NCBI GenBank assembly: GCA_964390375.1
Contig: CAYMIF010000002.1
Coordinates: forward strand, 4,191-68,190
Origin: an uncultured Methanosarcinales archaeon
GTDB lineage: Archaea; Nanobdellota; Nanobdellia; Woesearchaeales; DSVV01
Length of the DNA: 64,000 nt
Direction of reading: 5' to 3'
This document shows positions 44,434-64,000 of this stretch, piece by piece. The translations under genes and the position numbers were made by a program. The notes beneath the pieces were generated by a model. It saw nothing but the letters and a program-made list of their open reading frames with translations. It did no database searches and had not been told where the DNA came from. Positions within the stretch are counted from its first letter, which is position 1. The number at the start of each line of letters is the position of its first letter.

Positions 44434-45534
44434 CTAGAATGATTGCTTGTACAGTTCTGTGGTCTTCTCTGCGCAGATGCTCCATCTGAAATTCATTGCC
44501 TTGAGTTTTCCGAACTGCACAGTATTTTCCCTGAATTTTTTGTCTTTTAAGAACTTTCTGATAGCTTTTGCGATTTGTTCTGGAGAATAAGGATTGCACA
44601 ATATTCCCTCTTTTTCGATTATTGAGGGAATACCGCCGACTCTTGATGCGATTATCGGTTTTCCGACAGCCATTGCCTCATAAAGCACTATTGGATTTGA
44701 TTCATAGGTGCTGACAAGAGCAACAGCAGTGCAGTTGCGGTAATATTTAAGCAGTGTCTTGTCAGCGACTGCCTTTTCAGAGAAGAAAACCTTGCTGTAT
44801 TTGTTTTTTATAGCTGTTGCTTTGAGTTCGTCAAGATAAGCCTGATCATTGCAGGGACCTATTATCTTCAGGTCTATCCTGGCCAGCTCGCATGCACGGA
44901 TCATTGTTCTTAGGTTCTTGACACGCACGACTCTTCCGACGAAAAGTACGTATCTATCATCCTTAAGCTTCCCTTTGAAATACTCATCATCAATCCCGTT
45001 TGGGATGACTGTGATATCCTTTGCACCTCTTTTCTTCAGTTGAGGCACCAGATTCTCAGATACTGATATTATCCTCTTGATTCTCTTTAGCTGGATATCC
45101 TCGAGATAGGCCCATATTGTATCATGGATCTTTGCAGAGATACTGGTCTCTGCATCCTTTCGATGGGATATCAGTGAATGTACTGTCAGGATGACTGGGT
45201 AGCTGTTTGCAAGTTTTTGTGCAGCATGTCCGTATGGTGCGCCGATCATATGTGCATGCACCACATCCGGTTTGATCGATTTGACTTTCTTGATAATCCT
45301 GCTGGAATCTGTCGTGATTCCGGATATGGTTCTCGGAAGCATTGATTCCTTAAGCATGTGGACCCTCAGGTTCTTTTTTCTTTTCCTGGCATCTGACTTA
45401 TGGTTGAATATAGAGATTAAATGCACCTCCCATTTCGGATTTCGTTCAGAGATAGATTTAGCAAGATGATGCACATGTCTCTCCACTCCGCCGGTGAATA
45501 CATCTGTCCATGGTCCGAGTATCGCGACTTTCAT
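44434..45534 (-). CDS. glycosyltransferase family 4
   Basis: ALVSTYESNPIVLYEAMAVGKPIIASRVGGIPSII. Confidence 0.75.
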   Translation of the reverse strand: MKVAILGPWTDVFTGGVERHVHHLAKSISERNPKWEVHLISIFNHKSDARKRKKNLRVHMLKESMLPRTISGITTDSSRIIKKVKSIKPDVVHAHMIGAPYGHAAQKLANSYPVILTVHSLISHRKDAETSISAKIHDTIWAYLEDIQLKRIKRIISVSENLVPQLKKRGAKDITVIPNGIDDEYFKGKLKDDRYVLFVGRVVRVKNLRTMIRACELARIDLKIIGPCNDQAYLDELKATAIKNKYSKVFFSEKAVADKTLLKYYRNCTAVALVSTYESNPIVLYEAMAVGKPIIASRVGGIPSIIEKEGILCNPYSPEQIAKAIRKFLKDKKFRENTVQFGKLKAMNFRWSICAEKTTELYKQSF

Positions 45535-47549
45535 ATGATCTCCTCATATATCTTTTTGGTCTCTTCAGAAGTCTGATCAAACGAGAATCCGTAAGCAGCT
45601 GACCTACATTCCCTTTCTGCCTGGTCTTTAGGAATTTGAAGTACCTCCAGGATTGCAGATGAAAATGCTGCAACATCAGGTTTGACGATCCTGCCGCAGT
45701 ACTTGTTCCTGACAAACTCTCGAACCCTGCCGACAGGTACAGTCACAACAGGCGTTCCGCAGGCCATGGCCTCCTGCACAACAAGAGGTCCTGACTCATA
45801 CTCGCTGAAAAGCACGACTGCATCTGCCATGTTATACAGATCGACCAGATTTTCCCTGCTCTGTGAACCTAGATAATAAATTCCCTCACTATGCGCAAGA
45901 TTATCCTTCTCAGCCCCTTCGCCAGCGATTAGCAGTTTCAGTCCTTTCTCTTTTTCTTTTGCAAGCTGGAAAGCTTCGATGATCCTGTCTACGTTCTTGT
46001 CTTTCCTGAGTCTTCCGCAATACAGCAGGATCTTGTCCTTTTTGCTTATTTTTATTTTGTGCTTATCAGTTATCGTCTTGTGATCGATGTTCTTTGGTTT
46101 GAACGTCTCAGTATCTACGCCTATATGTATCACTCTTGCCTTGTCTTTTAATGCCGGATACCTCTTGAGGTATCTCTTCTTGATATCATCAGACACGAAT
46201 ATCACGCGCCTGGCTCTGGAAAGTACCATTCGCTCGATGATTGAATACACCCATCCCACGACCTTTCCCTTCTTGCGCTTGATTGCTGTTCTATCATCGC
46301 CGTGTATTGTCACGACTAGTTTTTTTGAGAATATGAACCTAAGCGCGTAGAGTACGTTTTGGGCAGCTATTATGCCTTCTGGCTTTGAAGAAAACAGGCT
46401 CAGAAAATATCTCATACTTGAGCGGCAGTCTCCTGGCACTATGTTTATTTTCATATGTTTTTTCAGATCAAGTATATAGCTTGACGTGCCTCCGAGATTA
46501 TTCTTGCCCTCTTTTGTATGATAGACGATATTTATCCGCTCTTCTTTCCTGGTCGCAAGCTCGATCATGAAACTTGTCAGATCGATTTTGTCCTCGAAAA
46601 GCTTTTTCCTGCGCTTTTCCCATGTAGCCTGGGCATCCTTGTCGGTCACAAGCGCCAGAGCCTTCGCAAGCGCTTTTTTAGGGTCTTTTATAGAGAACAT
46701 AAGCTTGTATTTTCTTTCAAGCTCATCGAAGTTGCTCATCTGTCCGACAAACTCATTGCACCTGACAACAGGCACTCCCAGGCACGCACCCTCCGTTGCC
46801 ATGGTCTGCGAGTCGCCGACATAAAGCTTTGCTCCTTTCATGACAGAGTGCATTTTCTCAGGAGCAAGCTTCAGCCTGAATCTCTCAAGTTCCTTTGGCA
46901 TCTCTGCCTCAGAGGTGATATAGACATGAGCGTGTTTTGCCAGTTCCTTTGCGAACTTGATTTTCCACTCCAGGCTGAATCCTCCTTTGCCAGCATCATG
47001 CTGTGCAGCAAAGTTCACGAACCTCATGACAACATATGGCTTTTTAAGTCCTTTGATCTTATCTTCGTAGAACCATTTCGGATGCAGGTATGAAAGTTCC
47101 TTGAATCCGTTATACCGCACATGTTTCTTTCCGAGGTCGATAGAGAATCCTTTAGGTGTGACTATTTGGTTTGCGAATGGTTTCATGAGCCTAAACTGCC
47201 AGATCATAAGATCAGTGTCTTCGAATATTATTGACTTGACACCCAAAAGCCATGCTACCTGTGCGATATAGCAGTTGCCTGACGCCCCAATCATCAAATC
47301 CGGTTTGAATCGCTTCGCGATCTTGATGATTTTCCAGTCGATTGCGAACATTCCGATGGCTTTCTTTATCCCAGAGTACCCTTTTCCTCTTTTCTCATAG
47401 GGCAGGCTGTAAGCATCCAGAAGCTTTATCGCGACATCTTTGTCCCGCGCAGAGAAAAGCACAGCATGCCCGTTCTTCATCATCTCTTTTGCGAAATTCT
47501 TGAATAAGTGCACGTGCGCAGGATGCCCTATATCTATTAGTATTCTCAT
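45531..47549 (-). CDS. fusion protein: N-terminal DUF354 (epimerase/GT28-like Rossmann domain) + C-terminal GT4 glycosyltransferase
   Basis: The N-terminus MRILIDIGHPAHVHLFKN is characteristic of DUF354. The C-terminal half carries LFSEYESGPLVVQEAMACGTPVVTVPVG. Confidence 0.6.
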   Translation of the reverse strand: MRILIDIGHPAHVHLFKNFAKEMMKNGHAVLFSARDKDVAIKLLDAYSLPYEKRGKGYSGIKKAIGMFAIDWKIIKIAKRFKPDLMIGASGNCYIAQVAWLLGVKSIIFEDTDLMIWQFRLMKPFANQIVTPKGFSIDLGKKHVRYNGFKELSYLHPKWFYEDKIKGLKKPYVVMRFVNFAAQHDAGKGGFSLEWKIKFAKELAKHAHVYITSEAEMPKELERFRLKLAPEKMHSVMKGAKLYVGDSQTMATEGACLGVPVVRCNEFVGQMSNFDELERKYKLMFSIKDPKKALAKALALVTDKDAQATWEKRRKKLFEDKIDLTSFMIELATRKEERINIVYHTKEGKNNLGGTSSYILDLKKHMKINIVPGDCRSSMRYFLSLFSSKPEGIIAAQNVLYALRFIFSKKLVVTIHGDDRTAIKRKKGKVVGWVYSIIERMVLSRARRVIFVSDDIKKRYLKRYPALKDKARVIHIGVDTETFKPKNIDHKTITDKHKIKISKKDKILLYCGRLRKDKNVDRIIEAFQLAKEKEKGLKLLIAGEGAEKDNLAHSEGIYYLGSQSRENLVDLYNMADAVVLFSEYESGPLVVQEAMACGTPVVTVPVGRVREFVRNKYCGRIVKPDVAAFSSAILEVLQIPKDQAERECRSAAYGFSFDQTSEETKKIYEEII

Positions 47550-52732: not shown

Positions 52733-53326
52733 TCATTGTCTCATATTCAGTATATAGTCTTGTTTTGGGATTATCGCTTCCTCATGGCACTTGCTGCAGA
52801 CCATTACTGCATGATCAGCCCCTTCCTCTTTGAGTTCCAGCTTCTCCCCGCATTTGCATACAAATCCCTTGAGTCTTGCTGGATTACCCATCACAAGGCC
52901 GTGGTCAGGCACGTTTCGTGTCACGACAGAGCCGGCAGCGACCATTGCATATTCACCGATCACCCGATCACCGCAGATGATGGTCGAGTTTGCGCCGATT
53001 GACGCACCTCGTTTCACAAGTGTTGTTGCAACCCATGATTCGTCCCATGAGAATGCCCTTGGCCGAAGGTCGTTTGTGAACACGACAGAAGGACCGACAA
53101 AGACATCGTCCTCGATTGTCACGCCATGGTATACCGATACATTGTTTTGTATCTTTACCCCCGAGCCGACAGAAACCTCAAGATCTATGTATACGTTCTT
53201 TCCTATATTGCATCTGTCTCCGATCTTTGCATTCTCCCGCACCTGTGCCTGGTGCCAGATATTCGTATCTTTACCGATATCTGCATCTTTTGAGACCTCT
53301 GCTGAAGGATGTATCATTTTAGACAA
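52733..53326 (-). CDS. hexapeptide-repeat N-acetyltransferase (WbpD-like) with C-terminal Cys4 zinc-ribbon
   Basis: LbH repeats throughout, and a C-terminus CKCGEKLELKEEGADHAVMVCSKCHEE. Confidence 0.7.
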   Translation of the reverse strand: MSKMIHPSAEVSKDADIGKDTNIWHQAQVRENAKIGDRCNIGKNVYIDLEVSVGSGVKIQNNVSVYHGVTIEDDVFVGPSVVFTNDLRPRAFSWDESWVATTLVKRGASIGANSTIICGDRVIGEYAMVAAGSVVTRNVPDHGLVMGNPARLKGFVCKCGEKLELKEEGADHAVMVCSKCHEEAIIPKQDYILNMRQ

Positions 53327-53488
53327 TAGAATCGCGGTGTTTTTATATGATTTGTGGTTTTCAGGTCAGATCCTCAGGTGGCTTTGGCAGAATTCTTTCA
53401 TAAAAAGAGGATTTAAAAGAGCTAAAATGCGAAAAAACACGGAATAAGACCAATAACATTTAAAAACACTTATTTTTTCTCGCGTTTT

Positions 53489-54067
53489 ATGATAAGATCG
53501 AATAGATCTGATATTGCAGTCTACCATTTCACTACAGGTAGAAATGAGGAGCAGATAAAGGATGACGGCCTGCAGCCAAGATCAAATATGGTATGCGCAA
53601 CTTTAGCCGACTATCTGACAGATGGTTCATCCCGGATGCTTCCAGAAGAGGCTTATCAGGGAGTATGGTACGGCATTCTTCCAGATGATCTGGAGTTATG
53701 GAAAAACAGTCCACAACAATCCAGTGTTTGGGATTCTATGATGGAGCATATCCTTTCCAAGGAACGCTTGCGCTCAGGAAATGTATTTAAGATGCAGGCA
53801 ATGGCAGATCCTGACACTCTGGCTGTATTTGATTTCATTCATCTGGCAAGAGCCATGAGCAATAATGGTTATGAAAGAAAGGCTCGGGTGATTGATGAGG
53901 CTATAAAGGCATATTGGGATTCAGGAACTCCTTTGAAAAGATATGCAGGGGGATATTCGTTGCCAGAAACAGTGAGCTGGTCGCCGGTAGGCAGGGAGAA
54001 TCTCTTTACGAAAAGCAAGGTTACCTACACTTCTGGTCCAAGGCAGTTCCAGCCTCTGCAGAACTAG
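53489..54067 (+). CDS. hypothetical protein
   Basis: 192 aa ORF with no recognisable motif. Confidence 0.3.
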   Translation: MIRSNRSDIAVYHFTTGRNEEQIKDDGLQPRSNMVCATLADYLTDGSSRMLPEEAYQGVWYGILPDDLELWKNSPQQSSVWDSMMEHILSKERLRSGNVFKMQAMADPDTLAVFDFIHLARAMSNNGYERKARVIDEAIKAYWDSGTPLKRYAGGYSLPETVSWSPVGRENLFTKSKVTYTSGPRQFQPLQN

Positions 54068-54070
54068 TAT

Positions 54071-54736
54071 TCAGCTAACTATATTCATTATCTTGTTCTC
54101 AATTTTTCGAAGATGTTCGATCAATGTCGGTTTCGAAATACCTATTACTTCTGCAAGTTTTTTTCCGTCGATCTTTCTTGGGTATTGATAATAGCCCATC
54201 TCTTTTGCCATCCTGAAGACTTCCTTTTGCTTGGAAGTAAGTCCGGATAGGATATTATGTCCTTTATAATCAGCAGGGTTAAAACTGACGCTCAAGACTT
54301 TTCCGATCAGCCCTGAAAGCTTTACAAACTTTTCTAGGTCCTGGTCCTTTCCGATGCAGCTGAAGACAATTTCTCCTTTCTCAAGATAGGCTGGCTTTGT
54401 CCATATCAGGTCCATGTCAAACTTGGATGTCAGGCTACGCAAAGCTTTAGGAACACGTGATTTCATGATGATTGTGTAGGTATTTCCTTCCTGTCCCAGG
54501 ATGTCTATCATGACTGCATTATTCGGCCATTTCAGGTCTTCTATGTTGTATCCTTCTTTCATTGTAACTTTGGCTACGCCGACCTTTATGCCTCTTTTAT
54601 AGTCAAGCTTCAGCAGCTCTTCCAGTTCAACCATCTCGATCTTCTTTAGGACTTGTCCAAGGCCCATCTTCGCCAGGATATTTGGTTTGAGCCTGATTGT
54701 GGTCTTTCTCATGAGAATGAAGTATGCATCAATCAA
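54071..54736 (-). CDS. transcriptional regulator with C-terminal HTH_10 (Bat-type) DNA-binding domain
   Basis: The C-terminal LTSKQKEVFRMAKEMGYYQYPRKIDGKKLAEVIGISKPTLIEHLRKIENKI matches the HTH_10 pattern. Confidence 0.5.
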   Translation of the reverse strand: MIDAYFILMRKTTIRLKPNILAKMGLGQVLKKIEMVELEELLKLDYKRGIKVGVAKVTMKEGYNIEDLKWPNNAVMIDILGQEGNTYTIIMKSRVPKALRSLTSKFDMDLIWTKPAYLEKGEIVFSCIGKDQDLEKFVKLSGLIGKVLSVSFNPADYKGHNILSGLTSKQKEVFRMAKEMGYYQYPRKIDGKKLAEVIGISKPTLIEHLRKIENKIMNIVS

Positions 54737-54940
54737 TATTTATTTTTTCCCATTCATGAATGGGATAAATTACAAATAATCCAAATTCAGCTATGATATT
54801 CATGTTGTTTTTGATGCCCTGCTCACCATTATATTGTATATCATTATCAGTTAGGCTTAATTCTATGAAAAATAAAAGGAATAAAGAAGTAAAAGCAGCT
54901 AAAGTAGCTAAAAAACATGTTTGATCAGGACAAACTTTTC

Positions 54941-55849
54941 TTACCCATGCACATGCCCTGGCCCGTACATCTCCACAAGAACGATTATCGCGATGCCGAG
55001 GATTATCGCAAAGAGATGAAGCATTGTATCTTTCCATCTGCAGTGCCGGTGAAGCTGCGGTGTCAGGTTTGAAGCAGCGATATAGATGAAATTGCCTGCA
55101 GCAAAAGGTATGATGAATCTTGTGAATCCAGAGAATCTGCCGATCAGCAGTATCCCGACAATCGTTCCGATTATGGCTGTGATTGCAGAGAGCAGGTTGA
55201 ATATCAGCGCCTTTTTCTTGGATAGTCCTGAATATAGCAGCACTCCGAAGTCTGCGATCTCCTGAGGTATCTCATGGAATATTATGGATATCGTGGCGGT
55301 TATGCCGACAGTTATATTGACTGCAAACGCACCAGCAATGACGAGCCCGTCGATGAAATTATGCACTCCGTCTCCGATAAGGTTGATTGGCGCGAGGTTG
55401 TAGGCATGTCCATGCCCGCACTCCCTGCCTTCGCATTTTGCAGTATGATGGCAGTGCACGAATTTTTCTAGTATGAACATCACGATGAATCCCAGCAGTA
55501 TAAGAAGCGCAGGAGTGTATGCATCCTGATGCGCCTCATGCTCTTCTGCTTCTTCATGCTCTGGATGATGCTCTTCCTCGTGCTCGCCCATTTCCTCATC
55601 AGCATGTTCTGCCTCATGTCCATGCCCCAGGGATTCTGGTATGAGTTCGATAAAAGCAGTAGACAGGAGTACGCCTACAGAAAGGCTGAGAAGGAACAGC
55701 AGGCTCCTGTTCGAAAGCCGTTTCTTGATAAGGAAAGGTATGGCAACGATGACTGAGAGAAGCGAGATTATGATGACTGCGATTATTGCCCATATCGGAT
55801 TCATTTTCAATGAAATTGGATAAGCAGGGGGTTTATATATCTTTTTCAT
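54941..55849 (-). CDS. ZIP-family divalent metal (Zn/Fe) transporter with His/Glu-rich cytoplasmic loop
   Basis: 8 TM segments, the His-rich loop HGHEAEHADEEMGEHEEEHHPEHEEAEEHEAHQD, and conserved HEIPQEIADF in TM5. Confidence 0.8.
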   Translation of the reverse strand: MKKIYKPPAYPISLKMNPIWAIIAVIIISLLSVIVAIPFLIKKRLSNRSLLFLLSLSVGVLLSTAFIELIPESLGHGHEAEHADEEMGEHEEEHHPEHEEAEEHEAHQDAYTPALLILLGFIVMFILEKFVHCHHTAKCEGRECGHGHAYNLAPINLIGDGVHNFIDGLVIAGAFAVNITVGITATISIIFHEIPQEIADFGVLLYSGLSKKKALIFNLLSAITAIIGTIVGILLIGRFSGFTRFIIPFAAGNFIYIAASNLTPQLHRHCRWKDTMLHLFAIILGIAIIVLVEMYGPGHVHG

Positions 55850-55907
55850 TTAAAACCATAACAGATAACTACTAAATAGTAATAAAAAAACAAAACATTT
55901 AAATACC

Positions 55908-55926
55908 AGTGGCAATTATTGCCACT
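55908..55926. promoter_or_regulatory. perfect 9-1-9 palindrome AGTGGCAAT-t-ATTGCCACT ~60 bp upstream of the ZIP transporter start; candidate operator for a metal-responsive repressor
   Basis: Read directly from the sequence. It lies between the divergent ZIP and kinase genes. Confidence 0.3.
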
Positions 55927-56077
55927 ATACAATGATAAAAAAACACAAAATCAGCATATCTGTAGGAGAGGGCACCCTGGTTGCGATAAGGGAAGCTGTC
56001 CGCTCAGGCATGTTCCGCAGCAGGTCTCATGCTTTTGAATTCTCGCTGAATCATTTCCTGAATAGAGGTGATTCCCG

Positions 56078-57667
56078 ATGATTCCCCAGGCAGCATTGGA
56101 TATTTCAAAAGAAGAAACAGGACAAGAATACAGGCTCAGGGGCAATCGTTACAGGGTGCTCTCTGAGATCGGAAGAGGCTGCTGGGGAGTTGTCAGCAAG
56201 GCCCACGACACGCTCACAGGAGAGACTGTCGCACTAAAAGAGCATTCTCCTACAGAGTTGGCTTCTGAGCAGATGGTCAGGAGGAACCTCGATGAGCTGG
56301 CAGTCATGGTGCGTGAGGCAGGAAAGTTCACGGCCTGCTCCAACGTCGTGCCCAGATGGTTTGAACAGGACGGACAGGGGCCTTTCATAGTCATGCCAAT
56401 ATACAGGAGAAATCTTGAGGAGGTCATAACACAGGGCTCAACCGACCTTCATCTCGATTCAGGCCTGACAGCAAAACAGGTCATGTCATTTACAGCAGAT
56501 ATCGCAAACAGCATCATGGAGGCCCACGAAAGATACAGCAGGGCCCACGGAGACATTAAGCCGAACAACTATATGGTCTCAGATGACGGAAGGGTCCATC
56601 TGACTGATCTTGGTACATCGACAATAATATCCACAACACCCAGTCTGCATAATGGTGACCAGCACGGATTCATATACACAAGAGCGCCAGAGAGTTTCAG
56701 GACAGATTCAAAACCCACAAAAAGAGGTGACATATGGTCTTTCGGCTCATTGTTCTACAGGTTCATCACAGGAAGATACGTGCTCGGGGATTTCCCTGAT
56801 CCACAGCGCTTCATCGAATCAAAATCATCTGAAGAGTTCGACAGGCATGTAAGCAGGAAGGTGGACAAGAACATCCCGAAAGCCTGGAGGCCATTCCTGA
56901 AAAAATGTCTCAGATGGAGTCCGCTTGACCGCTTTTCAGACGGCCAGGAGCTCTATTCAGAATTTAAGGCAGCAAGAGACAAGAGCGATTATCTGACAAG
57001 GTTCAAGAAGAGCTTCTGGAACTGGACCTTGAAATTGTCCATACCTGCAGCATCTCTGGCATCTGTTTTCTTACTCAATAGCATCTATACCCCTCCTGAA
57101 GCAAACATCCCTGTGAGGGACTATAAGGCAACTGCTTCATATGTCAACGGCATACCTTTTGATTCAGATCCTGTCTTTGTAAGAGAGGACCTCGAACTGC
57201 CAGAAACAGATTATGATGTCACTATCGATAGGTCGAGGGCTTTCAAGCGTTTTACCCGCAGCAGGATAGTTGTTGCGCTGGCAAATAAGTATTTCACTGC
57301 TGTCGATCAGCTTGGCGGGCCGAGGAGGGTTTATACAACAGAAGGCCAGTCAAGGATATACGGAAGCTATGTAGGTCCTGATGAGAAGCAATTTATGTCT
57401 CAACCCAATATGTTTGCGGTCATAAGATCCATTGAGGTAGGCATCTCAAAGAGCAGGAATATCGACGGGAACTATGACCTCGAGGACACCTGTACCATAG
57501 GAAGGGTGGGCTTAGAGCTTTGGGAAGAGGCAAAAAGATATGCGAACAACGGCCAGGGAAGCTTTGAGTTCAGGGAATATATAAGATCTAAAAGAGCAGA
57601 CGGAAGTTATGTGATCCCAGAAAAAGAGCAGAGGTTCATCAGGACCTGGCTTTCCCATATCCGCTAA
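56078..57667 (+). CDS. Hanks-type Ser/Thr protein kinase with single TM helix and C-terminal extracytoplasmic domain
   Basis: GxGxxG-like IGRGCWGVV, VALKE lysine, catalytic HGDIKPNN, DLG activation-loop anchor, and a TM segment near aa 320. Confidence 0.8.
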   Translation: MIPQAALDISKEETGQEYRLRGNRYRVLSEIGRGCWGVVSKAHDTLTGETVALKEHSPTELASEQMVRRNLDELAVMVREAGKFTACSNVVPRWFEQDGQGPFIVMPIYRRNLEEVITQGSTDLHLDSGLTAKQVMSFTADIANSIMEAHERYSRAHGDIKPNNYMVSDDGRVHLTDLGTSTIISTTPSLHNGDQHGFIYTRAPESFRTDSKPTKRGDIWSFGSLFYRFITGRYVLGDFPDPQRFIESKSSEEFDRHVSRKVDKNIPKAWRPFLKKCLRWSPLDRFSDGQELYSEFKAARDKSDYLTRFKKSFWNWTLKLSIPAASLASVFLLNSIYTPPEANIPVRDYKATASYVNGIPFDSDPVFVREDLELPETDYDVTIDRSRAFKRFTRSRIVVALANKYFTAVDQLGGPRRVYTTEGQSRIYGSYVGPDEKQFMSQPNMFAVIRSIEVGISKSRNIDGNYDLEDTCTIGRVGLELWEEAKRYANNGQGSFEFREYIRSKRADGSYVIPEKEQRFIRTWLSHIR

Positions 57668-58578
57668 ACCTTCATCAAGAGAAGTTCAGACAGTACAGGG
57701 CTGCTTGCGATCTGCACCAGCCGAAAGATTTCCCTGATGTATGAATTGACCACCGAGTCCTTGCTGCCTGACCTGCTGATGGCGTTGATGCAGCTTCCGA
57801 ACTGATATCTTTTCTTGAGCACATTCAGCTTGTGTATATTATCGATCCTTTTCTTGTAGTAGCTGTCGTAGAGCAGCCCGAAATATTCATCAAGGTTTTT
57901 CATAAGTTCAAGGGTCCTGGGCTTGGCAGAATATTTGTTTGCCTTCATGTATTCATGCATGTATCTGTACGCATGCTCGATATGCATGAGAAAGCTCAGA
58001 AGCTCCCAGGAAGTGGCCTTGTCTGCATCCACCCTCTCCTTAGAAAGCATCCTTCTGCAGAACAGTACGTATCTGTCATGATTGACCATAAGATCATTGA
58101 TCTCTGCAGAGTTCTTATACCCTTCTTTCATGTCCGAGACGATCAGTTCATGCGTCTCCCTGATGATGAGAAACACCCTGCGCATCATAGAATCATACTT
58201 GTCCATATCTGGCTCAGAGATATTCTCGATTACGCAAGAGTCCCTGTTTTTTTCCACGATCTCAAAACCCAGCAGCATATCATTCACGACATCCTTTAGT
58301 TCCTTATGCAGCTTATTGTCCAGGCCATGTAAAGACAATATGTCAAATCCTTTCCTGTAGCAGTGCGTCAGGATATTCTTGAGGTCATGCCTGTTCTGTT
58401 CGGTTATCCTGATATCCTTTCTCCTCTTGCCATGCACCCTGGAAGAGATCACAAGCGACTCGTTCTCCTCTTCCACCCTGACACTGTCGCCTGCACCAAG
58501 CTTCTTTTGGTCCAGCCACTTCTTCGGAAGATACACTGTGCATCCCCCTATGCCCTGCTTGATGAGCTTTCTTTCCAT
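57664..58578 (-). CDS. PhoU-like regulator with N-terminal AbrB/SpoVT (swapped-hairpin) DNA-binding domain
   Basis: N-terminal KLIKQGIGGCTVYLPKKWLDQKKLGAGDSV resembles AbrB/SpoVT; the rest is helical and PhoU-like. Confidence 0.5.
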   Translation of the reverse strand: MERKLIKQGIGGCTVYLPKKWLDQKKLGAGDSVRVEEENESLVISSRVHGKRRKDIRITEQNRHDLKNILTHCYRKGFDILSLHGLDNKLHKELKDVVNDMLLGFEIVEKNRDSCVIENISEPDMDKYDSMMRRVFLIIRETHELIVSDMKEGYKNSAEINDLMVNHDRYVLFCRRMLSKERVDADKATSWELLSFLMHIEHAYRYMHEYMKANKYSAKPRTLELMKNLDEYFGLLYDSYYKKRIDNIHKLNVLKKRYQFGSCINAISRSGSKDSVVNSYIREIFRLVQIASSPVLSELLLMKV

Positions 58579-58666
58579 GCCCCGAGCATTGATTCACAGC
58601 TATTTAAATCTTTCGTTTTAATATGATTAATATTAATGATATCAGTTAAATATTAATTAAGGTATT

Positions 58667-59467
58667 TTGTCACTGCCAGATAATAAAATGACTCTCACTA
58701 TGGATATAATCGGGACCTGCAATGAGAGCTGTGAGTTCTGCTATCAGGACAATGACGGAACAACGCTCTCCGAAGAAGAGGTGATAGGGATAGCTGATGC
58801 CAACCCAGATCTTGATGTTGTTGAGATTGGAGGAGGCGAGCCATTTCTTCATGATGGCCTGGCCAGAATAGTATCGGTTCTATTAGGAACGGGAAGAAAG
58901 GTTCATCTATCTACAAACTGCACAATGATATCTGAAGAATTGGTTGATTCAGTCTCAGGACTTAATGATGGTCTTGAGCTGCAGGTGAGTCTCCATGCTG
59001 CTGATCCGAAAACCTATCAGGATATTACTGGAAAGGATTATTTCGATCTTGTCATGCATAACCTGGCAAAACTAAGTTCAGCTTTCAGGACATCTATCTC
59101 TACTACTGTCTACCAGAGAAATTATTGCTCAGTAGAAGGTGTGATAGACATAGCAAGTGGACTTGGACTCCCGGTGAGGGTCCTGCCTGTGCTGCCGATC
59201 GGAAAAGGGGCCGCGGTAAGGCTGCTTGAGCCTGCACAGTTGGACAAGTTGAGGGGGATGCTTCTCGCAGAGTCCCTTCAGAGGGGTATTGTTGTTGATT
59301 CCCCTTTGATTCACAGGAACAACTGCCAGGCATTGGAGGACGCATATGGAATACCCAAGCAAGCCCGGTGTCCTTTGGATTTAGGACAAAAAGTTTACTA
59401 TTCGCCCAGAGGCGAGCGATACTCATGCGAATTCTGCAGATACGATGTTTTAGGTGAAAGAAGATGA
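58667..59467 (+). CDS. small radical SAM enzyme with C-terminal Cys-rich auxiliary (SPASM/twitch-like) segment
   Basis: GTCNESCEFC (CxxxCxxC), a GGGEP SAM-binding motif, and C-terminal CQALED...ARCPLD...YSCEFCRY. Confidence 0.7.
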   Translation: MSLPDNKMTLTMDIIGTCNESCEFCYQDNDGTTLSEEEVIGIADANPDLDVVEIGGGEPFLHDGLARIVSVLLGTGRKVHLSTNCTMISEELVDSVSGLNDGLELQVSLHAADPKTYQDITGKDYFDLVMHNLAKLSSAFRTSISTTVYQRNYCSVEGVIDIASGLGLPVRVLPVLPIGKGAAVRLLEPAQLDKLRGMLLAESLQRGIVVDSPLIHRNNCQALEDAYGIPKQARCPLDLGQKVYYSPRGERYSCEFCRYDVLGERR

Positions 59468-61047
59468 ACCATCCTACAGCGATGAAGATAAAAGATAATC
59501 TAGGAAAAGGCAATAAGATAGCGCCTGTCAAGTCTGCTCTTGGTGAAGAGAGTTACTATATCAATCCAAAGCTCAAAGAGGGCCTTGATGGTGTGATTGC
59601 TACAATCGAGCATATCGATCGTTTCGGGACTGAGATGGGCCACAGGAACTATCTGTTCTACGGCCCTCCAGGAACAGGAAAGACGCTTGGTGTACAGTAT
59701 ATTGCCTCAAGGCTGGGAATAGACATATACGACGGCAAGTCGATCTCCAACCCCCAGCAGGTGGCAGAGACTTTCGGGCAGATGAGGCAGATAACAAAAG
59801 GTGGTGAGAATAAGGCCATTCTCATGCTGGATGAGGTTGACAGGTTCTCATCAAGGGACGATGTTGTCGATCCAGGTCAGAGGCAGACACTCAACCAGCT
59901 TCTGGTAGAGATGCAGGGTATGGAATCCAACCACGGTATATTCATATTCGGCATGTCCAACAAGGAGAACAGCATCGATTCTGCCTTAAGAAGGCCTGGA
60001 AGATTCTCAAAGGAGATAGAGTTCATGCCGCCTGACAAGGAAGGCCGTCTGAGGATACTTAAGATACATGCAGACCGGAAAGGCGGACACATGTTCAAAG
60101 TTGACGAAGATGACCTTGAATACGCGTCAACTAAGACTTTCGGCTATACTGGAGCAGACTTAAGAGGTCTCTTGGACGAGGCATTCACCTACAGTGTGCT
60201 CCGCGATGACAGATGCACTGTCACGACTGCTGACATAGAGAAGGCAATCAAGAATACCAAGCCGTCAGCCCTTCGTGATATGCCTTTCCGTGAGCCCCAG
60301 AAGACTTTTGCAGATGTCGGTGGATACGAATACCATGTGATGCTTGCAAGACGGATCTTCGCAAAACCGGATGGAAGCATGTCTTTGTTCTATGGGCCTC
60401 CTGGCACAGGCAAGACTGATTTTGCAGAAATTGTTGCAGGTAGCTTCGGATATAACCAGATAGTCGTCTCTGGTTCAGAACCTGAGGACAAGTTTGTCGG
60501 AGAGACTGGAAAGAAGATCGACAGGTATCTCAACCGCGCAAAGCAGCTGGCTCCATGTGTTCTGCTCTTCGATGAGATGGATGCACTTTTGGAGAAGAAG
60601 AACGTATCATCCCACAAGTCAAGCTGGACTGGCCTTCTTCAGAGCAGGCTGAGCAAGCCATTGGAAGGTGTCCATGTCATAGGTACGATGAACAGGCCGG
60701 ACCTGCTGAACCCAACATTCATCCAGAGATTTCCGCACAAGTTATATTTCGGGATGCCGGCAGCAGATGAGCTCTACAAAATCTGGCAGATATATCTTCC
60801 TGAGGGGATGGATGCGCAGGCTCTGGCAGAAGCGCATCCTGGGATCACAGGACGGACAATATCAGAGACTGTACTTAAGCTGAATGATTTCGGCATGGCA
60901 GATGATCCTGCTTTGTATCACAGGCTTTTGGACCAGTACAAAGCATTTGACCCAAAACCCTATGACAGCATGGTCGCAACAATCGGCGATTCAGTCAGGG
61001 ACTATAGGATGGTCGAGGCATACAGGAAGGAGATGGATGCAAGATGA
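59464..61047 (+). CDS. tandem-AAA+ ATPase (two classical AAA domains, Cdc48-like D1-D2 without N-domain)
   Basis: Two Walker A motifs (LFYGPPGTGKTL and LFYGPPGTGKTD), two Walker B motifs (ILMLDEVD and LLFDEMD), and an SRH ALRRPGRF. Its ATG overlaps the upstream stop (ATGA). Confidence 0.85.
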   Translation: MNHPTAMKIKDNLGKGNKIAPVKSALGEESYYINPKLKEGLDGVIATIEHIDRFGTEMGHRNYLFYGPPGTGKTLGVQYIASRLGIDIYDGKSISNPQQVAETFGQMRQITKGGENKAILMLDEVDRFSSRDDVVDPGQRQTLNQLLVEMQGMESNHGIFIFGMSNKENSIDSALRRPGRFSKEIEFMPPDKEGRLRILKIHADRKGGHMFKVDEDDLEYASTKTFGYTGADLRGLLDEAFTYSVLRDDRCTVTTADIEKAIKNTKPSALRDMPFREPQKTFADVGGYEYHVMLARRIFAKPDGSMSLFYGPPGTGKTDFAEIVAGSFGYNQIVVSGSEPEDKFVGETGKKIDRYLNRAKQLAPCVLLFDEMDALLEKKNVSSHKSSWTGLLQSRLSKPLEGVHVIGTMNRPDLLNPTFIQRFPHKLYFGMPAADELYKIWQIYLPEGMDAQALAEAHPGITGRTISETVLKLNDFGMADDPALYHRLLDQYKAFDPKPYDSMVATIGDSVRDYRMVEAYRKEMDAR

Positions 61048-62000
61048 ACCTTGAACAGAAGCTTAAGACAAGAAGGGTATTGAGAAGATTTCCCTCGCAG
61101 GAAGCCCTGCAGATGGTTGAGCAGGGAAGAAAGTTCGTGCCTGTTGAAGAGGATTTTGATACTGCTTACGTACCTCAGGGATACAGTCTGATTCGGATGA
61201 CCCATAGGGGAGATACATTCAGGACACTGATTCCCCAGTCGCTTCTTTTCTTCATGGCAAACCCTGGAGAAGGGGATCCTGACCAGGCCCTGGAAGAGAT
61301 AGCAGACTTCTATGGTGATGCAAAGGACTTTGAGGATGACATGATGGATGAGGCTGGCACGTCTGTTCAGGAGGCAAACTGGGCAGTCCTTGCGAAGAAC
61401 AGCTATACCACTTACCTGATCAACCGGTTGGTCAGCCACAAGATTGGTGCCAAGGATGAGATGGGCGAACCAGTCCCTGATTTCAGCTATGAAGGTACAA
61501 GACAGCTTGGACTGGGAGACAGGTATATAGAACAGTGTGTTCGTGCCATGGCCGCAGTGGCGCTTGGAAAGACAGTGAATGACATCCAGGCCCATGAGGT
61601 CTCTGATGTCCTCAAGCACGTCACATTCAAAAAGCAGGAAACCAGGCAGATGACAAGGCAGGAGTTCGACCAGGTGACCTGCTGGGCAGGTAGCCATTAC
61701 GAGCTGAAAAGTCAGTATAGAAATGACCCTGACAAAAAATATGATATTGTGATGAGACATGACAGGGAACTCAAGGAGGGCACAGTGACGATCAAGGCAC
61801 AAAAGGTAGCTTATCTTGATTCTGATATCTCAAAGTATGAGGATAGGATAGCTGAGCGCAGGAAAAGGCTTTCAGAGCAGGAATACACAAGACATGATCG
61901 TGCTCTGATACGCATGTATGCCAACCTGAAATACATTGCACCCGAGAATCCAAGAGCGCAGCTTTCGATTGAGCCTCCAAAAAAAGAGGTGAAAAAATGA
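61044..62000 (+). CDS. hypothetical protein (318 aa), translationally coupled to the AAA ATPase
   Basis: 4-bp ATGA overlap at both ends and no recognisable domain. Confidence 0.4.
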   Translation: MNLEQKLKTRRVLRRFPSQEALQMVEQGRKFVPVEEDFDTAYVPQGYSLIRMTHRGDTFRTLIPQSLLFFMANPGEGDPDQALEEIADFYGDAKDFEDDMMDEAGTSVQEANWAVLAKNSYTTYLINRLVSHKIGAKDEMGEPVPDFSYEGTRQLGLGDRYIEQCVRAMAAVALGKTVNDIQAHEVSDVLKHVTFKKQETRQMTRQEFDQVTCWAGSHYELKSQYRNDPDKKYDIVMRHDRELKEGTVTIKAQKVAYLDSDISKYEDRIAERRKRLSEQEYTRHDRALIRMYANLKYIAPENPRAQLSIEPPKKEVKK

Positions 62001-63610
62001 CAGGCCAGCCGCCTGCAGTGATAGACCTGGAACTATCAGACAGCGATGTCCAGCAGGATCTGGGAGCGATAGTCAGGGATATGTCTGCGCTTCGTGTTGA
62101 GACAATGACACAGAGGAAATTCTCAGACGAGCAGAAAGATGATTATCTTCATCTTGCATATAGGCTTGCATCAGGCTTAAAGGCACTGGCAGACGACTCG
62201 ACTGTCAGCAAGATGCAGTATGTTGCAGAGACTCTTAACTCTGTTCCGCAGTTGATGGAATATGATCCTCTTCAGGATGGTTTATGGAGAAGAAAGCAAA
62301 GAAGGTTCGTGGAGAACCTTGAGGATCTGCTCGTAGGTGTTGTGAGAGATGACTTCCGCACGGCAGATTCAAAGCATCACATATTGCAGGCAGTGAAATA
62401 TCTTGCTTCCGAGGACCTTGATCCTGAGGAACGGGAAGAGGTATATGATTCTATCGAGCCGTTCAAGGGTGCTCTGCCTCTCGAGAAGAGCCAGGGATTC
62501 TTCAACAGGCTTTTTGGCAGGCTTCTTGGCTGCAGCTACCAGGTCTGGGACGAAAACAGGCTTGTCATGGGTGTTGACATTTTAGGCAAGGGACATAATC
62601 CAAAGTTTAGAAAGATTGCTGAAGAAAGGGGTTATACAACATTGAAGATTGTCCTTGACGCTTTTGAATACAAGTATGAAAAAGATGCTATTGGTCCTCA
62701 TCAGGCAGTTGATGTCAGTGATATACCTTTTGAGATGAGTAAAATGACAAGAGTATTGGACAAAATTATAAGATATACAAAACCGATCACCTATCCTGTT
62801 TTAGGCATGCTGCCCCGCAAGGTCCAGGAGCATCTGGAATTAAACACAGATTCCTTCGATGCTGAATCTGCATTCAAGGCTTCCTGGTGGACCCATCTAG
62901 CAGCTGGTGCAGCATTGATTTACTTTTCACCTTTCTATGGGATACCTGTATTAATCGATGTTGCAGCAAGAGGTTACAATACATATTTTCCTCAACATAC
63001 TGGAAATAAGTGGCATTATCAGGATCCGACCGGCTCCCTCATGCTCAAGCCTTTCTTCTGGCCAATAGGATCCGGGCTTGATACAAAAAAGACAGAATGG
63101 AGAGGTGCAGAGATAAGGGTAAGGCAGCCCGAGGAAGCAATAGACATCCCCAATGCAGCCGAATATCTCGATAAGCTGGCAAGGATCGAGCTTGCGCAGA
63201 ACGCAGAAGGTAACCTGAAATGGACTTCAAGGAACAATTTTCGATATGGAAAATATTTTCGCCAATGCCTGAATGCAAATGCGCCTAAGCACTCTCCTAA
63301 TATGAGTCTTAGTAAAGGGGCATACCGGGCCCAGCAGGCAGTTTCTTATGACCATGAGCATGAGAGCGGAGGCATAGTCAAGAACACCTCCCTGATATGC
63401 AGGTGTGGGGATAGGTATCTATTGACTGTGATAAGAAGAAAGGACAGCTCAGGAGAGGACCTGCCGAATTTCGCAAGATCAGTCCTGAAAGATACTGCCT
63501 CTCCAGACCAGGCAATACAGTCGATATCCGAACAGTTCAATCCGATATACTTGCGGCTGAGGAAATATTCAGGCGGAAAGTTGCAAAATGACCTCGAAGG
63601 GGTGGCCTAG
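61997..63610 (+). CDS. hypothetical protein (537 aa) with one hydrophobic segment, translationally coupled
   Basis: 4-bp start overlap. Hydrophobic stretch WWTHLAAGAALIYFSPFYGIPVLIDVAA and no recognisable domain. Confidence 0.4.
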   Translation: MTGQPPAVIDLELSDSDVQQDLGAIVRDMSALRVETMTQRKFSDEQKDDYLHLAYRLASGLKALADDSTVSKMQYVAETLNSVPQLMEYDPLQDGLWRRKQRRFVENLEDLLVGVVRDDFRTADSKHHILQAVKYLASEDLDPEEREEVYDSIEPFKGALPLEKSQGFFNRLFGRLLGCSYQVWDENRLVMGVDILGKGHNPKFRKIAEERGYTTLKIVLDAFEYKYEKDAIGPHQAVDVSDIPFEMSKMTRVLDKIIRYTKPITYPVLGMLPRKVQEHLELNTDSFDAESAFKASWWTHLAAGAALIYFSPFYGIPVLIDVAARGYNTYFPQHTGNKWHYQDPTGSLMLKPFFWPIGSGLDTKKTEWRGAEIRVRQPEEAIDIPNAAEYLDKLARIELAQNAEGNLKWTSRNNFRYGKYFRQCLNANAPKHSPNMSLSKGAYRAQQAVSYDHEHESGGIVKNTSLICRCGDRYLLTVIRRKDSSGEDLPNFARSVLKDTASPDQAIQSISEQFNPIYLRLRKYSGGKLQNDLEGVA

Positions 63611-63611
63611 T

Positions 63612-64000
63612 ATGTCCAGGATGCTAGTATATGACTGGAAGGCGATACTGAAGAGGAGTGCGCTCAATATAAGCCTTGGAGCTGCCTTGATACTGGGATA
63701 TTCAGGTATCAGGCTTGCCGGTTCCCTGAGCGATCGTTATGCTGGCTGGCGCGAAAACAGCAGGAGCATAGGCGAGATTGAGACGCTTATCGAGGAGAAA
63801 GATTATGGCCCTGCACAGGAACTGCTTGTGCGATACGACAAGGGTGATAATATAACAGACGCAGATGCTGTCATCCTGCAGGAGAGGTTGACAAGCGAAA
63901 AGGAAGATTACGAGAGAATAGAGAGGAAGATAGATTTTGAGACCACGCTCCACGAGCTTAGAAGACAAGACCCAAACCAGGCATATGCATTTCTATCTGA
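63612..64000 (+). CDS. hypothetical membrane protein, 3'-partial (runs off window end); not in the supplied ORF track because no stop is reached
   Basis: The ATG at 63612 lies 1 nt after the stop of the previous gene. The open frame runs to nt 64000 (MSRMLVYDWKAILKRSALNISLGAALILGYSGIRLAG...). Confidence 0.35.
   Translation, partial: MSRMLVYDWKAILKRSALNISLGAALILGYSGIRLAGSLSDRYAGWRENSRSIGEIETLIEEKDYGPAQELLVRYDKGDNITDADAVILQERLTSEKEDYERIERKIDFETTLHELRRQDPNQAYAFLS

What the first reader, a model, noticed from the sequence alone, without database searches (positions are those of the whole stretch)
58667..64000. Translationally coupled operon: radical SAM (SPASM-like) + tandem-AAA+ ATPase + two unknown proteins + membrane protein
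Five co-oriented genes are linked by ATGA (4-bp) or 1-bp start/stop junctions, which indicates co-translation as one unit. The first product is a compact radical SAM enzyme (CxxxCxxC, GGGEP, extra C-terminal Cys cluster). The second is a Cdc48-like double AAA+ ATPase that lacks the usual N-domain. The next three products (318 aa, 537 aa, a partial membrane protein) have no motif I can recognise. I know of no described system with this gene combination. Radical SAM plus AAA+ unfoldase plus unknown partners could be a protein or peptide modification machine, or a defence-type module. The operon is flanked by regulators on the opposite strand (an AbrB-PhoU-like protein and a membrane Ser/Thr kinase).
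Basis: partly seen in the sequence, partly recalled or inferred. Interest (0 to 1): 0.8.

Follow-up and report, generated by a model that had tools for sequence, protein, structure and literature searches.

The report
Undescribed radical-SAM/AAA+ operon of DPANN archaea
The five genes are the start of a longer operon built on four strictly co-occurring proteins (a radical SAM enzyme, a p97-like double-ring ATPase and two families with no known relatives) that turns up only in a few tiny DPANN archaea, matches no described system, and has an unknown function.

Summary
Window 58667-64000 carries a tightly coupled, co-oriented gene string: three ATGA overlaps and one 1-nt spacer. It encodes a compact radical SAM enzyme, an N-domain-less Cdc48/VAT-like double AAA+ ATPase, and three proteins with no family hits.

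An identical contig (L015) shows the operon continues past the window end, giving at least 7 genes.

The set rSAM + AAA + P318 + P537 is conserved:
- Among 32 non-redundant related loci, rSAM and AAA were present in 17 of 17 with enough upstream sequence.
- P537 was present in 28 of 28 assessable loci.
- Named loci are Woesearchaeota or Pacearchaeota. Two bins labelled as CPR bacteria are probably misbinned.

There is no consistent precursor peptide, no defence-database hit and no viral or plasmid relative. No description turned up in six full-text searches.

My best guess, at low confidence, is a membrane-associated protein maturation or assembly machine. A defence or conflict system is the main rival. 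I rate it genuinely novel, with mechanism unresolved.

The parts
58579..58687 (.). Divergent intergenic region between the AbrB-like regulator gene and the rSAM gene. It is 73% A+T with TTTAAAT-type boxes and is the presumed archaeal promoter region.
   Evidence: Read directly. No Rfam family in 53000-64000. Promoter function was not tested.
58688..59467 (+). Compact radical SAM enzyme: 259 aa from ATG 58688, or 266 aa from TTG 58667. It has CxxxCxxC, GGGEP and a C-terminal three-Cys (twitch-like) motif.
   Evidence: Pfam PF04055 E 5e-17. All NCBIfam equivalogs score far below their cut-offs; the best are MftC and archaeal MoaA. Nearest PDB chains are 8wm2 and SkfB, E about 1e-5. Family alignment with conserved Cys is; homologues begin at the position of the ATG.
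59464..61047 (+). Double-ring classic-clade AAA+ ATPase (527 aa) with no N-domain and no C-terminal HbYX motif. D1 has Walker A/B and RPGRF arginine fingers but no pore-loop 1. D2 has Walker A/B and the pore loop KFVGE.
   Evidence: Two PF00004 domains. TIGR01243 CDC48 scores 204 bits, aligned to model positions 202-662. VAT and p97 are the best PDB hits, E 1e-66. Motif conservation in 26 orthologues.
61044..62000 (+). P318, a new family. It is about as conserved as the ATPase. Near-invariant residues are Y121, C213, S217, H218 and N294 (motif CWAGSHY on a predicted beta-hairpin), plus an ANPGEG motif.
61997..63610 (+). P537, a new modular family. It has a conserved polar helical N-module (YLHxxYRLASG, YDPxQD, DDF, KHHxLQ), a weakly hydrophobic helical hairpin (about residues 289-330), and a C-terminal T-fold-like module that also occurs on its own in about 325-aa proteins.
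63612..64000 (+). 5' part of the TMh gene (338 aa in full, L015 2965-3981). It has a conserved N-terminal tail, a roughly 17-residue weakly hydrophobic anchor, TPR/PPR-like helical repeats and a variable C-terminal domain. The operon continues beyond the window with 442-aa, 181-aa and possibly 102-aa genes.
   Evidence: L015 is identical to the window over 3353 nt, gene list. Family alignment of N-termini. Flank charges +3.2 at the N side against +0.8 at the C side, mean hydropathy 1.6. The profile hits designed PPR proteins, E 5e-9, at profile positions 52-150. No consistent Pfam hits.
57664..58578 (-). Divergently transcribed 304-aa protein with an AbrB/MazE-like N-terminus; a candidate regulator of the operon. 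Homologues lie near the cluster in L020 and L034. In other loci a 50-66 aa co-oriented ORF sits directly upstream of the rSAM gene instead.
   Evidence: Pfam MazE_antitoxin E 0.0013 and HTH_58 E 0.0015, both below cut-off. Homologues in L034 (1.7e-40) and L020 (2.9e-19). Small ORF family; its AbrB likeness is not significant.
56078..57667 (+). Membrane Ser/Thr protein kinase (529 aa) upstream, on the same strand as the operon. Any link to the operon is uncertain.
   Evidence: Pfam Pkinase E 3e-23. It is present next to the AbrB-like gene only in contigs that share its 90%-identity protein clusters. An FHA-domain gene sits inside the operon extension of L001, which hints at phospho-regulation.

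Best explanation
The genes form the 5' part of an operon of at least 7 genes. It encodes a previously undescribed, DPANN-restricted module with a four-protein core:
- a twitch-type radical SAM enzyme;
- a p97/VAT-like double-ring AAA+ unfoldase without an N-domain;
- P318;
- the modular P537.

Around the core sits a variable, fast-evolving set of N-terminally anchored TPR/PPR-like proteins (TMh).

Most likely it is a membrane-associated protein maturation and assembly machine. In this reading:
- The radical SAM enzyme makes a radical-mediated modification on a co-encoded protein. The near-invariant Cys213-x3-Ser-His hairpin of P318 is my prime candidate target.
- The ATPase uses its D2 pore loop (KFVGE) to unfold, thread or extract client subunits, so that they can be modified and assembled or disassembled at the membrane.
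- P318 may serve as the ATPase's adaptor, because it is about as conserved as the ATPase and the ATPase has no N-domain of its own.
- TMh paralogues and the P537 hairpin tether the complex to the membrane.
- An AbrB-type regulator controls transcription.

Shown: gene content, coupling, strict co-occurrence, motif integrity, and absence of known relatives.
Inferred: every activity, the identity of the substrate, the membrane topology and the biological role.
For: - Strict co-occurrence. rSAM and AAA were found in 17/17 non-redundant loci with at least 4.5 kb upstream of P318, and P537 in 28/28 assessable loci. Gene order is partly shuffled but the set is constant. ATGA coupling is seen in the window, and gene ends overlap by 4 nt at the same junctions in L001.
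- The rSAM's nearest characterised relatives are SPASM/twitch maturases that act on peptides or proteins (MftC, SkfB, ScmE/F, GeoRSP). It keeps a three-Cys auxiliary motif.
- The ATPase keeps catalytic motifs in both rings and a translocating pore loop only in D2, as in p97. It lacks any substrate-binding N-domain, so partners must supply specificity.
- Median identity to the window: AAA 56%, P318 52%, rSAM 45%, P537 34%. The single TMh comparison gave 22%. This fits a conserved cytoplasmic engine with diverging peripheral parts.
- TMh and P537 are multiplied within operons, up to 5 and 3 copies in L018 and L020. That is typical of multi-subunit assemblies.
- Anchors and the hairpin are hydrophobic, though weakly. 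TMh carries a protein-interaction solenoid.
- Flanks are mostly housekeeping genes.
Against: - No substrate has been identified and no modification is known.
- Hydrophobic segments are borderline (mean hydropathy about 1.6), so membrane association is unproven.
- P318 and the P537 N-module both have enzyme-like invariant polar residues. This could equally mean a multi-enzyme pathway rather than a structural complex.
- The T-fold-like module suggests small-molecule (purine or pterin) binding.
- The cluster is rare: 61 P318 clusters among 1.84e9 representatives and 9 of about 185,000 species genomes by a strict pattern scan. That fits an accessory or conflict function better than a basic cell-biology role.
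- No complex prediction or experiment was available.
Confidence: 0.33

Rival explanations
1. An anti-virus or inter-cellular conflict system. The AAA+ ATPase would control assembly or release of effectors: the rSAM product and/or the membrane-active TMh and P537 proteins. This is comparable in logic to the 'FtsH ternary' conflict systems, which combine a double FtsH-type AAA+ protein, system-specific alpha-helical proteins and, in one subset, a radical SAM effector.
For: - The distribution is rare and patchy.
- The operon-flanking genes differ between most loci, although a few share upstream neighbours.
- Peripheral components diverge fast and are multiplied.
- L001 lies beside a restriction-modification pair, a TGT-family gene and a nucleoside deoxyribosyltransferase, and has an FHA gene in the operon extension. 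A ParE toxin gene lies upstream in L003.
- There is generic similarity to pVip and IetA models.
- A published precedent pairs a double AAA+ protein with an rSAM effector (PMC7159879).
Against: - No complete or specific PADLOC match; the rSAM scores 32.7 bits against the 180-bit viperin cut-off.
- No MoxR or vWA partner is present, and D1 is catalytically intact, unlike in FtsH ternary systems.
- No recognisable toxin domain (nuclease, protease, NADase).
- Most flanks are housekeeping genes: ribosomal proteins, SRP54, aIF2-alpha, GatB.
- Absent from IMG/VR, phage and plasmid collections.
Confidence: 0.25
2. A biosynthetic or modification pathway for a small molecule or lipid, for example a purine-, pterin- or deazapurine-derived compound, or remodelling of scavenged membrane lipids. 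The rSAM, P318, the P537 N-module and the T-fold module would be enzymes working at the membrane.
For: - The rSAM has MoaA-like N-terminal similarity and a three-Cys auxiliary motif like MoaA's.
- P318 and the P537 N-module have invariant Cys/Ser/His and His/Asp residues.
- A TGT-family gene is a neighbour in L001.
- From general knowledge, not tested here: DPANN archaea generally lack lipid synthesis.
Against: - A classic-clade protein unfoldase with a pore loop has no obvious role in small-molecule synthesis.
- The T-fold match covers only about 77 residues, and no substrate-anchoring residues could be checked.
- Multiplied TPR/PPR-like anchored proteins are not expected in a metabolic pathway.
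- The TGT neighbourhood occurs in one locus only.
Confidence: 0.12
3. Part of an integrated virus, plasmid or other mobile element, with structural or morphogenesis genes served by an ATPase.
For: - The gene families are novel and fast-evolving, with different genomic positions between lineages.
- Cdc48-family ATPases are listed as virus- or plasmid-associated in archaeal dark-matter islands (PMC4158269).
Against: - No relatives in IMG/VR, GenBank phages or PLSDB plasmids, PHROGs or BFVD.
- No integrase, transposase, capsid or terminase gene appears among the Pfam-annotated flanking genes of the loci looked up.
- G+C is 0.46-0.49 against 0.39-0.48 across the window, so there is no clear compositional break.
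Confidence: 0.04
4. A chance juxtaposition of unrelated genes.
For: ATGA overlaps are common in this genome, so coupling alone proves little.
Against: The same four families co-occur in every assessable one of 32 non-redundant loci, even though the loci have diverged to 34-56% median identity to the window's proteins.
Confidence: 0.01

Closest known systems
Cdc48/p97/VAT type II AAA+ unfoldases
   Same: - Two classic-clade AAA domains in tandem.
- Walker A/B in both domains.
- RPGRF arginine fingers in D1.
- The aromatic pore loop (KFVGE) is only in D2, as in p97.
- Best PDB and NCBIfam matches are to this family.
   Different: - No double-psi-barrel N-domain; only about 55 residues precede D1.
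- No HbYX proteasome-docking tail.
- Pore-loop 1 is deleted in D1.
- 204 bits against the 802-bit CDC48 cut-off.
- Always encoded directly after a radical SAM gene.
SPASM/twitch radical SAM maturases (MftC, SkfB, anSME, QhpD, ScmE/F)
   Same: - N-terminal CxxxCxxC and GGGEP motifs.
- Extra C-terminal Cys motif.
- These are the best-scoring characterised relatives.
- Encoded in an operon with candidate protein substrates.
   Different: - Only about 260 aa, with three conserved C-terminal Cys rather than the 7-Cys SPASM signature.
- No RRE/PqqD-like leader-binding domain.
- No consistent precursor peptide.
- All equivalog cut-offs are missed by a wide margin.
FtsH ternary conflict systems (Kaur, Burroughs, Iyer, Aravind 2020, PMC7159879)
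   Same: A double FtsH/Cdc48-type AAA+ protein is combined with several system-specific alpha-helical proteins and, in one subset, a radical SAM enzyme. The authors proposed controlled assembly and disassembly of a large complex.
   Different: - Those systems are defined by MoxR and vWA partners, and their N-terminal AAA domain is inactive.
- They occur in multicellular bacteria.
- Here there is no MoxR or vWA, D1 is intact, and the hosts are DPANN archaea.
Prokaryotic viperins (pVip) and IetAS defence
   Same: Generic rSAM similarity to pVip models (E 1e-13) and AAA similarity to IetA models (E 2e-36) in PADLOC.
   Different: - The NCBIfam viperin model gives 32.7 bits against a 180-bit cut-off, and IteA 121 against 510.
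- No IetS protease.
- Viperins lack the C-terminal Cys motif.
- The similarity is at superfamily level only.
T-fold (tunnelling-fold) enzymes: FolB, FolE, QueF
   Different: - No sequence similarity.
- The predicted sheet has extra strands.
- The module is fused to a helical N-module and a hydrophobic hairpin.
- Catalytic and anchoring residues are not identifiable.

Membership tests
Radical SAM superfamily (PF04055) | CxxxCxxC cluster motif and a family score above the curated cut-off | tested here: met
   CNESCEFC is present. 62.9 bits against a 29.5 cut-off. The motif is conserved in the 12 full-length orthologues of the alignment.
Radical SAM superfamily (PF04055) | GGE-type SAM-binding motif | tested here: met
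   IGGGEP in the window, conserved as GGEP in the family alignment.
SPASM-domain radical SAM enzymes | Seven-Cys C-terminal signature (CX9-15GX4C ... CX2CX5CX3C ... C) for two auxiliary clusters | tested here: not met
   Only three Cys are conserved, with one more semi-conserved. At most one auxiliary cluster is possible, so the domain is twitch-like. Cluster content is not testable here.
Named rSAM equivalogs (MftC, MoaA, HpnH, AhbD, viperin, HxsC, SkfB...) | Score above NCBIfam's curated cut-off | tested here: not met
   The best is MftC at 61.6 bits against 265. Archaeal MoaA gives 55.8 against 325 and viperin 32.7 against 180.
Cdc48/VAT family | Two tandem classic AAA domains | tested here: met
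   Two PF00004 stretches. The alignment to TIGR01243 spans both rings.
Cdc48/VAT family | N-terminal double-psi-barrel/beta-clam substrate-recruiting domain, and the family cut-off | tested here: not met
   The match starts at model position 202 of 733. Only about 55 residues precede D1. 204.6 bits against 802.65.
Proteasome-activating AAA ATPases | C-terminal HbYX motif | tested here: not met
   The C-terminus is ...RKEMDAR and is not conserved among orthologues.
Known anti-phage defence systems (PADLOC-DB v2) | Specific model hits for the system's components | tested here: not met
   Only superfamily-level hits for the rSAM and AAA. P318 and P537 gave none; the partial fifth protein gave only one weak short hit (HamC, E 1.5e-4, 39 residues).
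FtsH ternary conflict system | MoxR AAA+ and vWA partners; inactive N-terminal AAA domain | tested here: not met
   No MoxR or vWA domain in any operon protein. D1 keeps the P-loop, the Walker B DE and the Arg fingers.
RiPP biosynthetic cluster | A short precursor peptide gene that accompanies the maturase | tested here: not met
   A 50-66 aa ORF lies upstream of the rSAM in at least 7 loci (counted by eye). It is absent in the window and many others. It has no Cys, is conserved along its whole length, and is replaced by an AbrB-like gene elsewhere.
T-fold superfamily (P537 C-terminal module) | beta-beta-alpha-alpha-beta-beta fold with oligomeric substrate sites | tested here: inconclusive
TPR/PPR-like alpha-solenoids (TMh juxtamembrane region) | Tandem helical-hairpin repeats of about 34-35 residues | tested here: inconclusive
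   The profile hits designed PPR proteins at E 5e-9, but no Pfam TPR or PPR model is matched consistently.

The most novel reading that the evidence does not exclude
This is a new kind of cellular machine specific to ultra-small episymbiotic archaea. A radical SAM enzyme and a dedicated p97-like unfoldase would work together on new protein folds (P318, P537) and on a diversifying set of membrane-anchored solenoid proteins. The purpose could be to build or remodel a cell-envelope or host-contact structure, or to install a new radical-dependent protein modification that needs ATP-driven unfolding of its substrate.
Probability: 0.3. Interest if true: 0.85.

Novelty: categorically new. Interest (0 to 1): 0.7.

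Why it matters
- DPANN archaea have tiny genomes and depend on host cells. How they attach to, feed on and defend themselves against other cells is largely unknown.
- A conserved 8-12 kb cluster takes up roughly 1% of such a genome, so it is likely to matter to its carriers.
- A radical SAM enzyme hard-wired to a Cdc48-type unfoldase is a pairing I could not find in the literature held here. If the two act on one protein substrate, it would be a new mode of post-translational maturation.
- P318 and the P537 N-module appear to have no sequence or fold relatives. They are candidates for new enzyme or structural families.
- The core is only four proteins, so the hypothesis can be tested directly by heterologous co-expression and mass spectrometry.

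Tried and rejected
1. Precursor peptide. The recurrent small ORF upstream of the rSAM was considered and rejected as a general substrate, because it is missing in the window and many other loci. Its AbrB likeness is only suggestive: hhalign E 0.28 and no PDB hit.
2. P0141. This 3555-aa protein matched the P318 profile 33 times, which looked like a repeat-domain relative. It is a translated tandem repeat that also hits unrelated Pfam models, so it is an artefact.
3. A relationship between P318 and P537. hhalign probability is 0.1%, so they are unrelated.
4. Viral or mobile origin. No hits in IMG/VR, GenBank phages, PLSDB, PHROGs or BFVD.
5. Presence in CPR bacteria. Two contigs are binned as Staskawiczbacteria and Doudnabacteria. 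The L022 RNase HII passes only TIGR00729 and fails all other (PRK-series) RNase HII models, so the contig is probably archaeal.
6. Foldseek against AFDB50. The library was unavailable.
7. Retrieving the NCBI source contig (73,642 nt) to name the organism. The exact look-ups returned only Logan contigs.
8. Rfam scan of 53000-64000. Nothing found.
9. Literature. Six full-text searches and four papers read gave no description of this cluster.

Full report
**1. What is in the window**

ORF listing and direct reading confirm five co-oriented + strand genes.

| Gene | Coordinates | Size |
|---|---|---|
| rSAM | 58667 (TTG) or 58688 (ATG) to 59467 | 266 or 259 aa |
| AAA | 59464-61047 | 527 aa |
| P318 | 61044-62000 | 318 aa |
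| P537 | 61997-63610 | 537 aa |
| Fifth ORF (TMh) | 63612 onward, runs off the window | partial |

- Three junctions are ATGA overlaps. The fourth is TAG-T-ATG.
- Orthologue alignments start at the position of the ATG, so 58688 is the likelier rSAM start.
- The upstream intergenic region, 58579-58687, is 73% A+T. It separates the operon from a divergent 304-aa gene (57664-58578, minus strand) with a weak AbrB/MazE-like N-terminus.
- No Rfam family lies in 53000-64000 and no tRNA lies in the window.
- G+C across the operon (0.46-0.49) shows no clear break from the rest of the window (0.39-0.48).

**2. The operon is longer than the window shows**

An exact look-up of P537 returned contig L015. 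It is 100% identical to window 60648-64000 and extends 5.4 kb further.

- The fifth gene is 338 aa.
- It is followed by tightly packed genes of 442 and 181 aa. After a 40-nt gap (read) comes a 102-aa gene that overlaps the ribosomal protein S27e gene.
- aIF2-alpha, a PAC2-family protein and a HIT protein follow.
- These genes, together with an archaeal-type GluRS at 17608-19302, show the organism is an archaeon.
- The source is an NCBI contig of 73,642 nt, which I could not retrieve by name.

**3. The two recognisable enzymes**

*The rSAM*
- It passes Pfam PF04055.
- It misses every NCBIfam equivalog cut-off by a wide margin. The best hits are MftC, archaeal MoaA, GeoRSP, HpnH and the W-cofactor maturase.
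- Its nearest solved relatives are 8wm2 and SkfB, at E about 1e-5.
- The 12 full-length orthologues keep CxxxCxxC and GGEP, and all 13 keep three C-terminal Cys (NNC, CP, CEF); a fourth position is Cys in most but Leu in the window.
- This is a truncated, twitch-like auxiliary motif, not a full SPASM domain.

*The ATPase*
- It has two classic AAA domains, and its best matches are VAT and p97.
- In 26 orthologues, D1 keeps the P-loop, the Walker B DE and the RPGRF arginine fingers, but lacks pore-loop 1.
- D2 keeps Walker A/B and the pore loop K-x-VGE, which is KFVGE in the window.
- There is no N-domain and no HbYX tail.

**4. The unknown proteins**

*P318*
- No hit in Pfam, NCBIfam, PADLOC, PHROGs or PDB sequences, whether as a single sequence, as a profile, or member by member.
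- A profile search of 1.84 billion representative proteins finds just 61 clusters. One odd hit is a tandem-repeat artefact.
- Over 110 members the most invariant residues are Y121, C213, S217, H218 and N294. The CWAGSHY motif sits on a predicted beta-hairpin.

*P537*
- It is rarer by sequence search: 15 clusters.
- It is modular:
  - a strongly conserved polar helical N-module (YLHxxYRLASG, YDPxQD, DDF, KHHxLQ);
  - a poorly conserved, weakly hydrophobic helical hairpin;
- P318 and P537 are unrelated to each other.

*The fifth protein, TMh*
- It belongs to a very divergent family, with about 21% mean column identity.
- Members share a conserved N-terminal tail (MxxKIxIINxxT...), a roughly 17-residue weakly hydrophobic segment, a TPR/PPR-like repeat region and variable C-terminal domains. 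The repeat region's profile hits designed PPR proteins at E 5e-9.
- Flanking charges weakly favour an N-in orientation.
- The 442-aa protein is a distant member of the same family.

**5. Conservation elsewhere**

Related loci came from three sources:
- a genome scan, which gave 9 loci;
- a metagenome scan, which gave 31 loci;
- exact look-ups.

Together they make 56 loci, which collapse to 32 non-redundant groups.

- rSAM and AAA lie on the same strand within 9 kb in all 17 groups with at least 4.5 kb of upstream sequence.
- P537 is present in all 28 assessable groups.
- Gene order varies. P537-type genes may precede the rSAM, or sit between the AAA and P318. TMh and P537 are often multiplied. 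The four-family set stays constant.
- Named genomes are Woesearchaeota and Pacearchaeota.
- Two contigs binned as CPR bacteria are doubtful. L022 carries an RNase HII that passes only TIGR00729.
- Related loci have 24-42% G+C, against about 46% in the window lineage.
- Median identity to the window proteins is AAA 56%, P318 52%, rSAM 45% and P537 34%. The single TMh comparison gave 22%.
- Flanks differ between most lineages and are mostly housekeeping genes: S3Ae, SRP54, FtsY, GatB, CoA biosynthesis.
- L001 is the exception. It lies beside a restriction-modification pair, a TGT-family gene and a deoxyribosyltransferase, and it has an FHA gene in the operon extension.
- A 50-66 aa ORF lies directly upstream of the rSAM in at least 7 loci (my count). 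Homologues of the 304-aa AbrB-like gene occur in L020 and L034. The two look like alternative regulators, but the AbrB similarity of the small ORF is not significant.

**6. Interpretation**

The strict four-way co-occurrence shows a functional unit. The components point to protein-directed chemistry:
- a maturase-type rSAM;
- an unfoldase that must borrow its specificity from partners;
- a partner, P318, that is about as conserved as the ATPase and carries a near-invariant Cys/Ser/His hairpin;
- weakly hydrophobic anchors and solenoid scaffolds that multiply and diverge.

I therefore favour a membrane-associated protein maturation and assembly machine, at about one-third confidence.

The main rival is a defence or conflict system.
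- For it: rarity, diversification, the L001 context, and the published precedent of double-AAA systems with an rSAM effector (PMC7159879).
- Against it: the absence of MoxR and vWA partners, of any toxin domain, of PADLOC hits and of defence-island context in most loci.

A small-molecule or lipid pathway is suggested by the T-fold-like module and the enzyme-like invariant residues. It leaves the unfoldase unexplained.

A mobile-element origin and a chance juxtaposition are effectively excluded.

**7. Novelty**

No curated family, defence catalogue or solved structure covers P318, the P537 N-module or the cluster as a whole. Six full-text searches and four papers read gave no description either. 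The literature library is incomplete, so a prior description in a subscription journal cannot be excluded.

I rate the cluster as lying outside known kinds of system, with its function unresolved.

Noticed in passing
window 29000-53300 (minus strand): A long run of about 20 co-oriented, often overlapping genes. It includes a DUF354/GT4/GT1 glycosyltransferase fusion (45531-47549) and a 453-aa radical SAM protein (37325-38686). It looks like a surface-glycan biosynthesis cluster.
   Followed up: partly
window 19302-25190 and 13752-16457 (minus strand): Two very large proteins: 1962 aa with FG-GAP and DUF4962 (heparinase-like) domains, and 901 aa with a right-handed beta-helix. They are probably surface or adhesion proteins.
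   Followed up: partly
window 8590-11442 and 11444-12913 (minus strand): Two adjacent proteins (950 and 489 aa) whose only Pfam hit at E<=1e-5 is the PEP-utilizers mobile domain, present twice in the larger one. This is an unusual architecture without recognisable PPDK/PEPS catalytic domains.
   Followed up: no
window 57664-57667: The kinase gene (+) and the AbrB-like gene (-) converge, and their 3' ends overlap by 4 nt.
   Followed up: yes
L001 11645-13182 and 1-3623: The operon extension carries an FHA-domain gene and a second, weakly FHA-like gene. Upstream lie an N6/N4 methyltransferase, an R.HinP1I-like endonuclease, a TGT-family gene and a nucleoside 2-deoxyribosyltransferase, which resembles a defence island. 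A 331-aa protein upstream of the rSAM in L020 also reads FHA-like, but Pfam does not support it.
   Followed up: partly
L022 (GCA_001821945.1, 'Staskawiczbacteria') and L006 ('Doudnabacteria'): Contigs carrying the cluster are binned as CPR bacteria. L022's RNase HII passes TIGR00729 (132 bits against 123.3), while all other RNase HII models (NCBI PRK series) fail. The contig is probably a misbinned DPANN contig rather than evidence of inter-domain transfer.
   Followed up: partly
P0141 (hit of the P318 profile): A 3555-aa 'protein' made of about 60-residue tandem repeats. It matches profile positions 172-240 of P318 33 times and also 'hits' unrelated Pfam models with huge scores. It is a translated satellite repeat and a search artefact.
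   Followed up: yes
L036 4273-5250, L040 4515-5507, L044 183-1151: Proteins of about 325 aa that contain only the C-terminal T-fold-like module of P537, possibly in two copies. They sit before the rSAM or between the AAA and P318, which shows the module is an independent unit of the system.
   Followed up: partly
L015 6173-8153 (about 2.2-4.2 kb beyond the window end): The conserved archaeal string S27e, aIF2-alpha and a PAC2-family proteasome-assembly chaperone follows the operon directly. The 102-aa anchored protein gene overlaps the S27e gene by 20 nt, so the 3' boundary of the operon is uncertain.
   Followed up: partly
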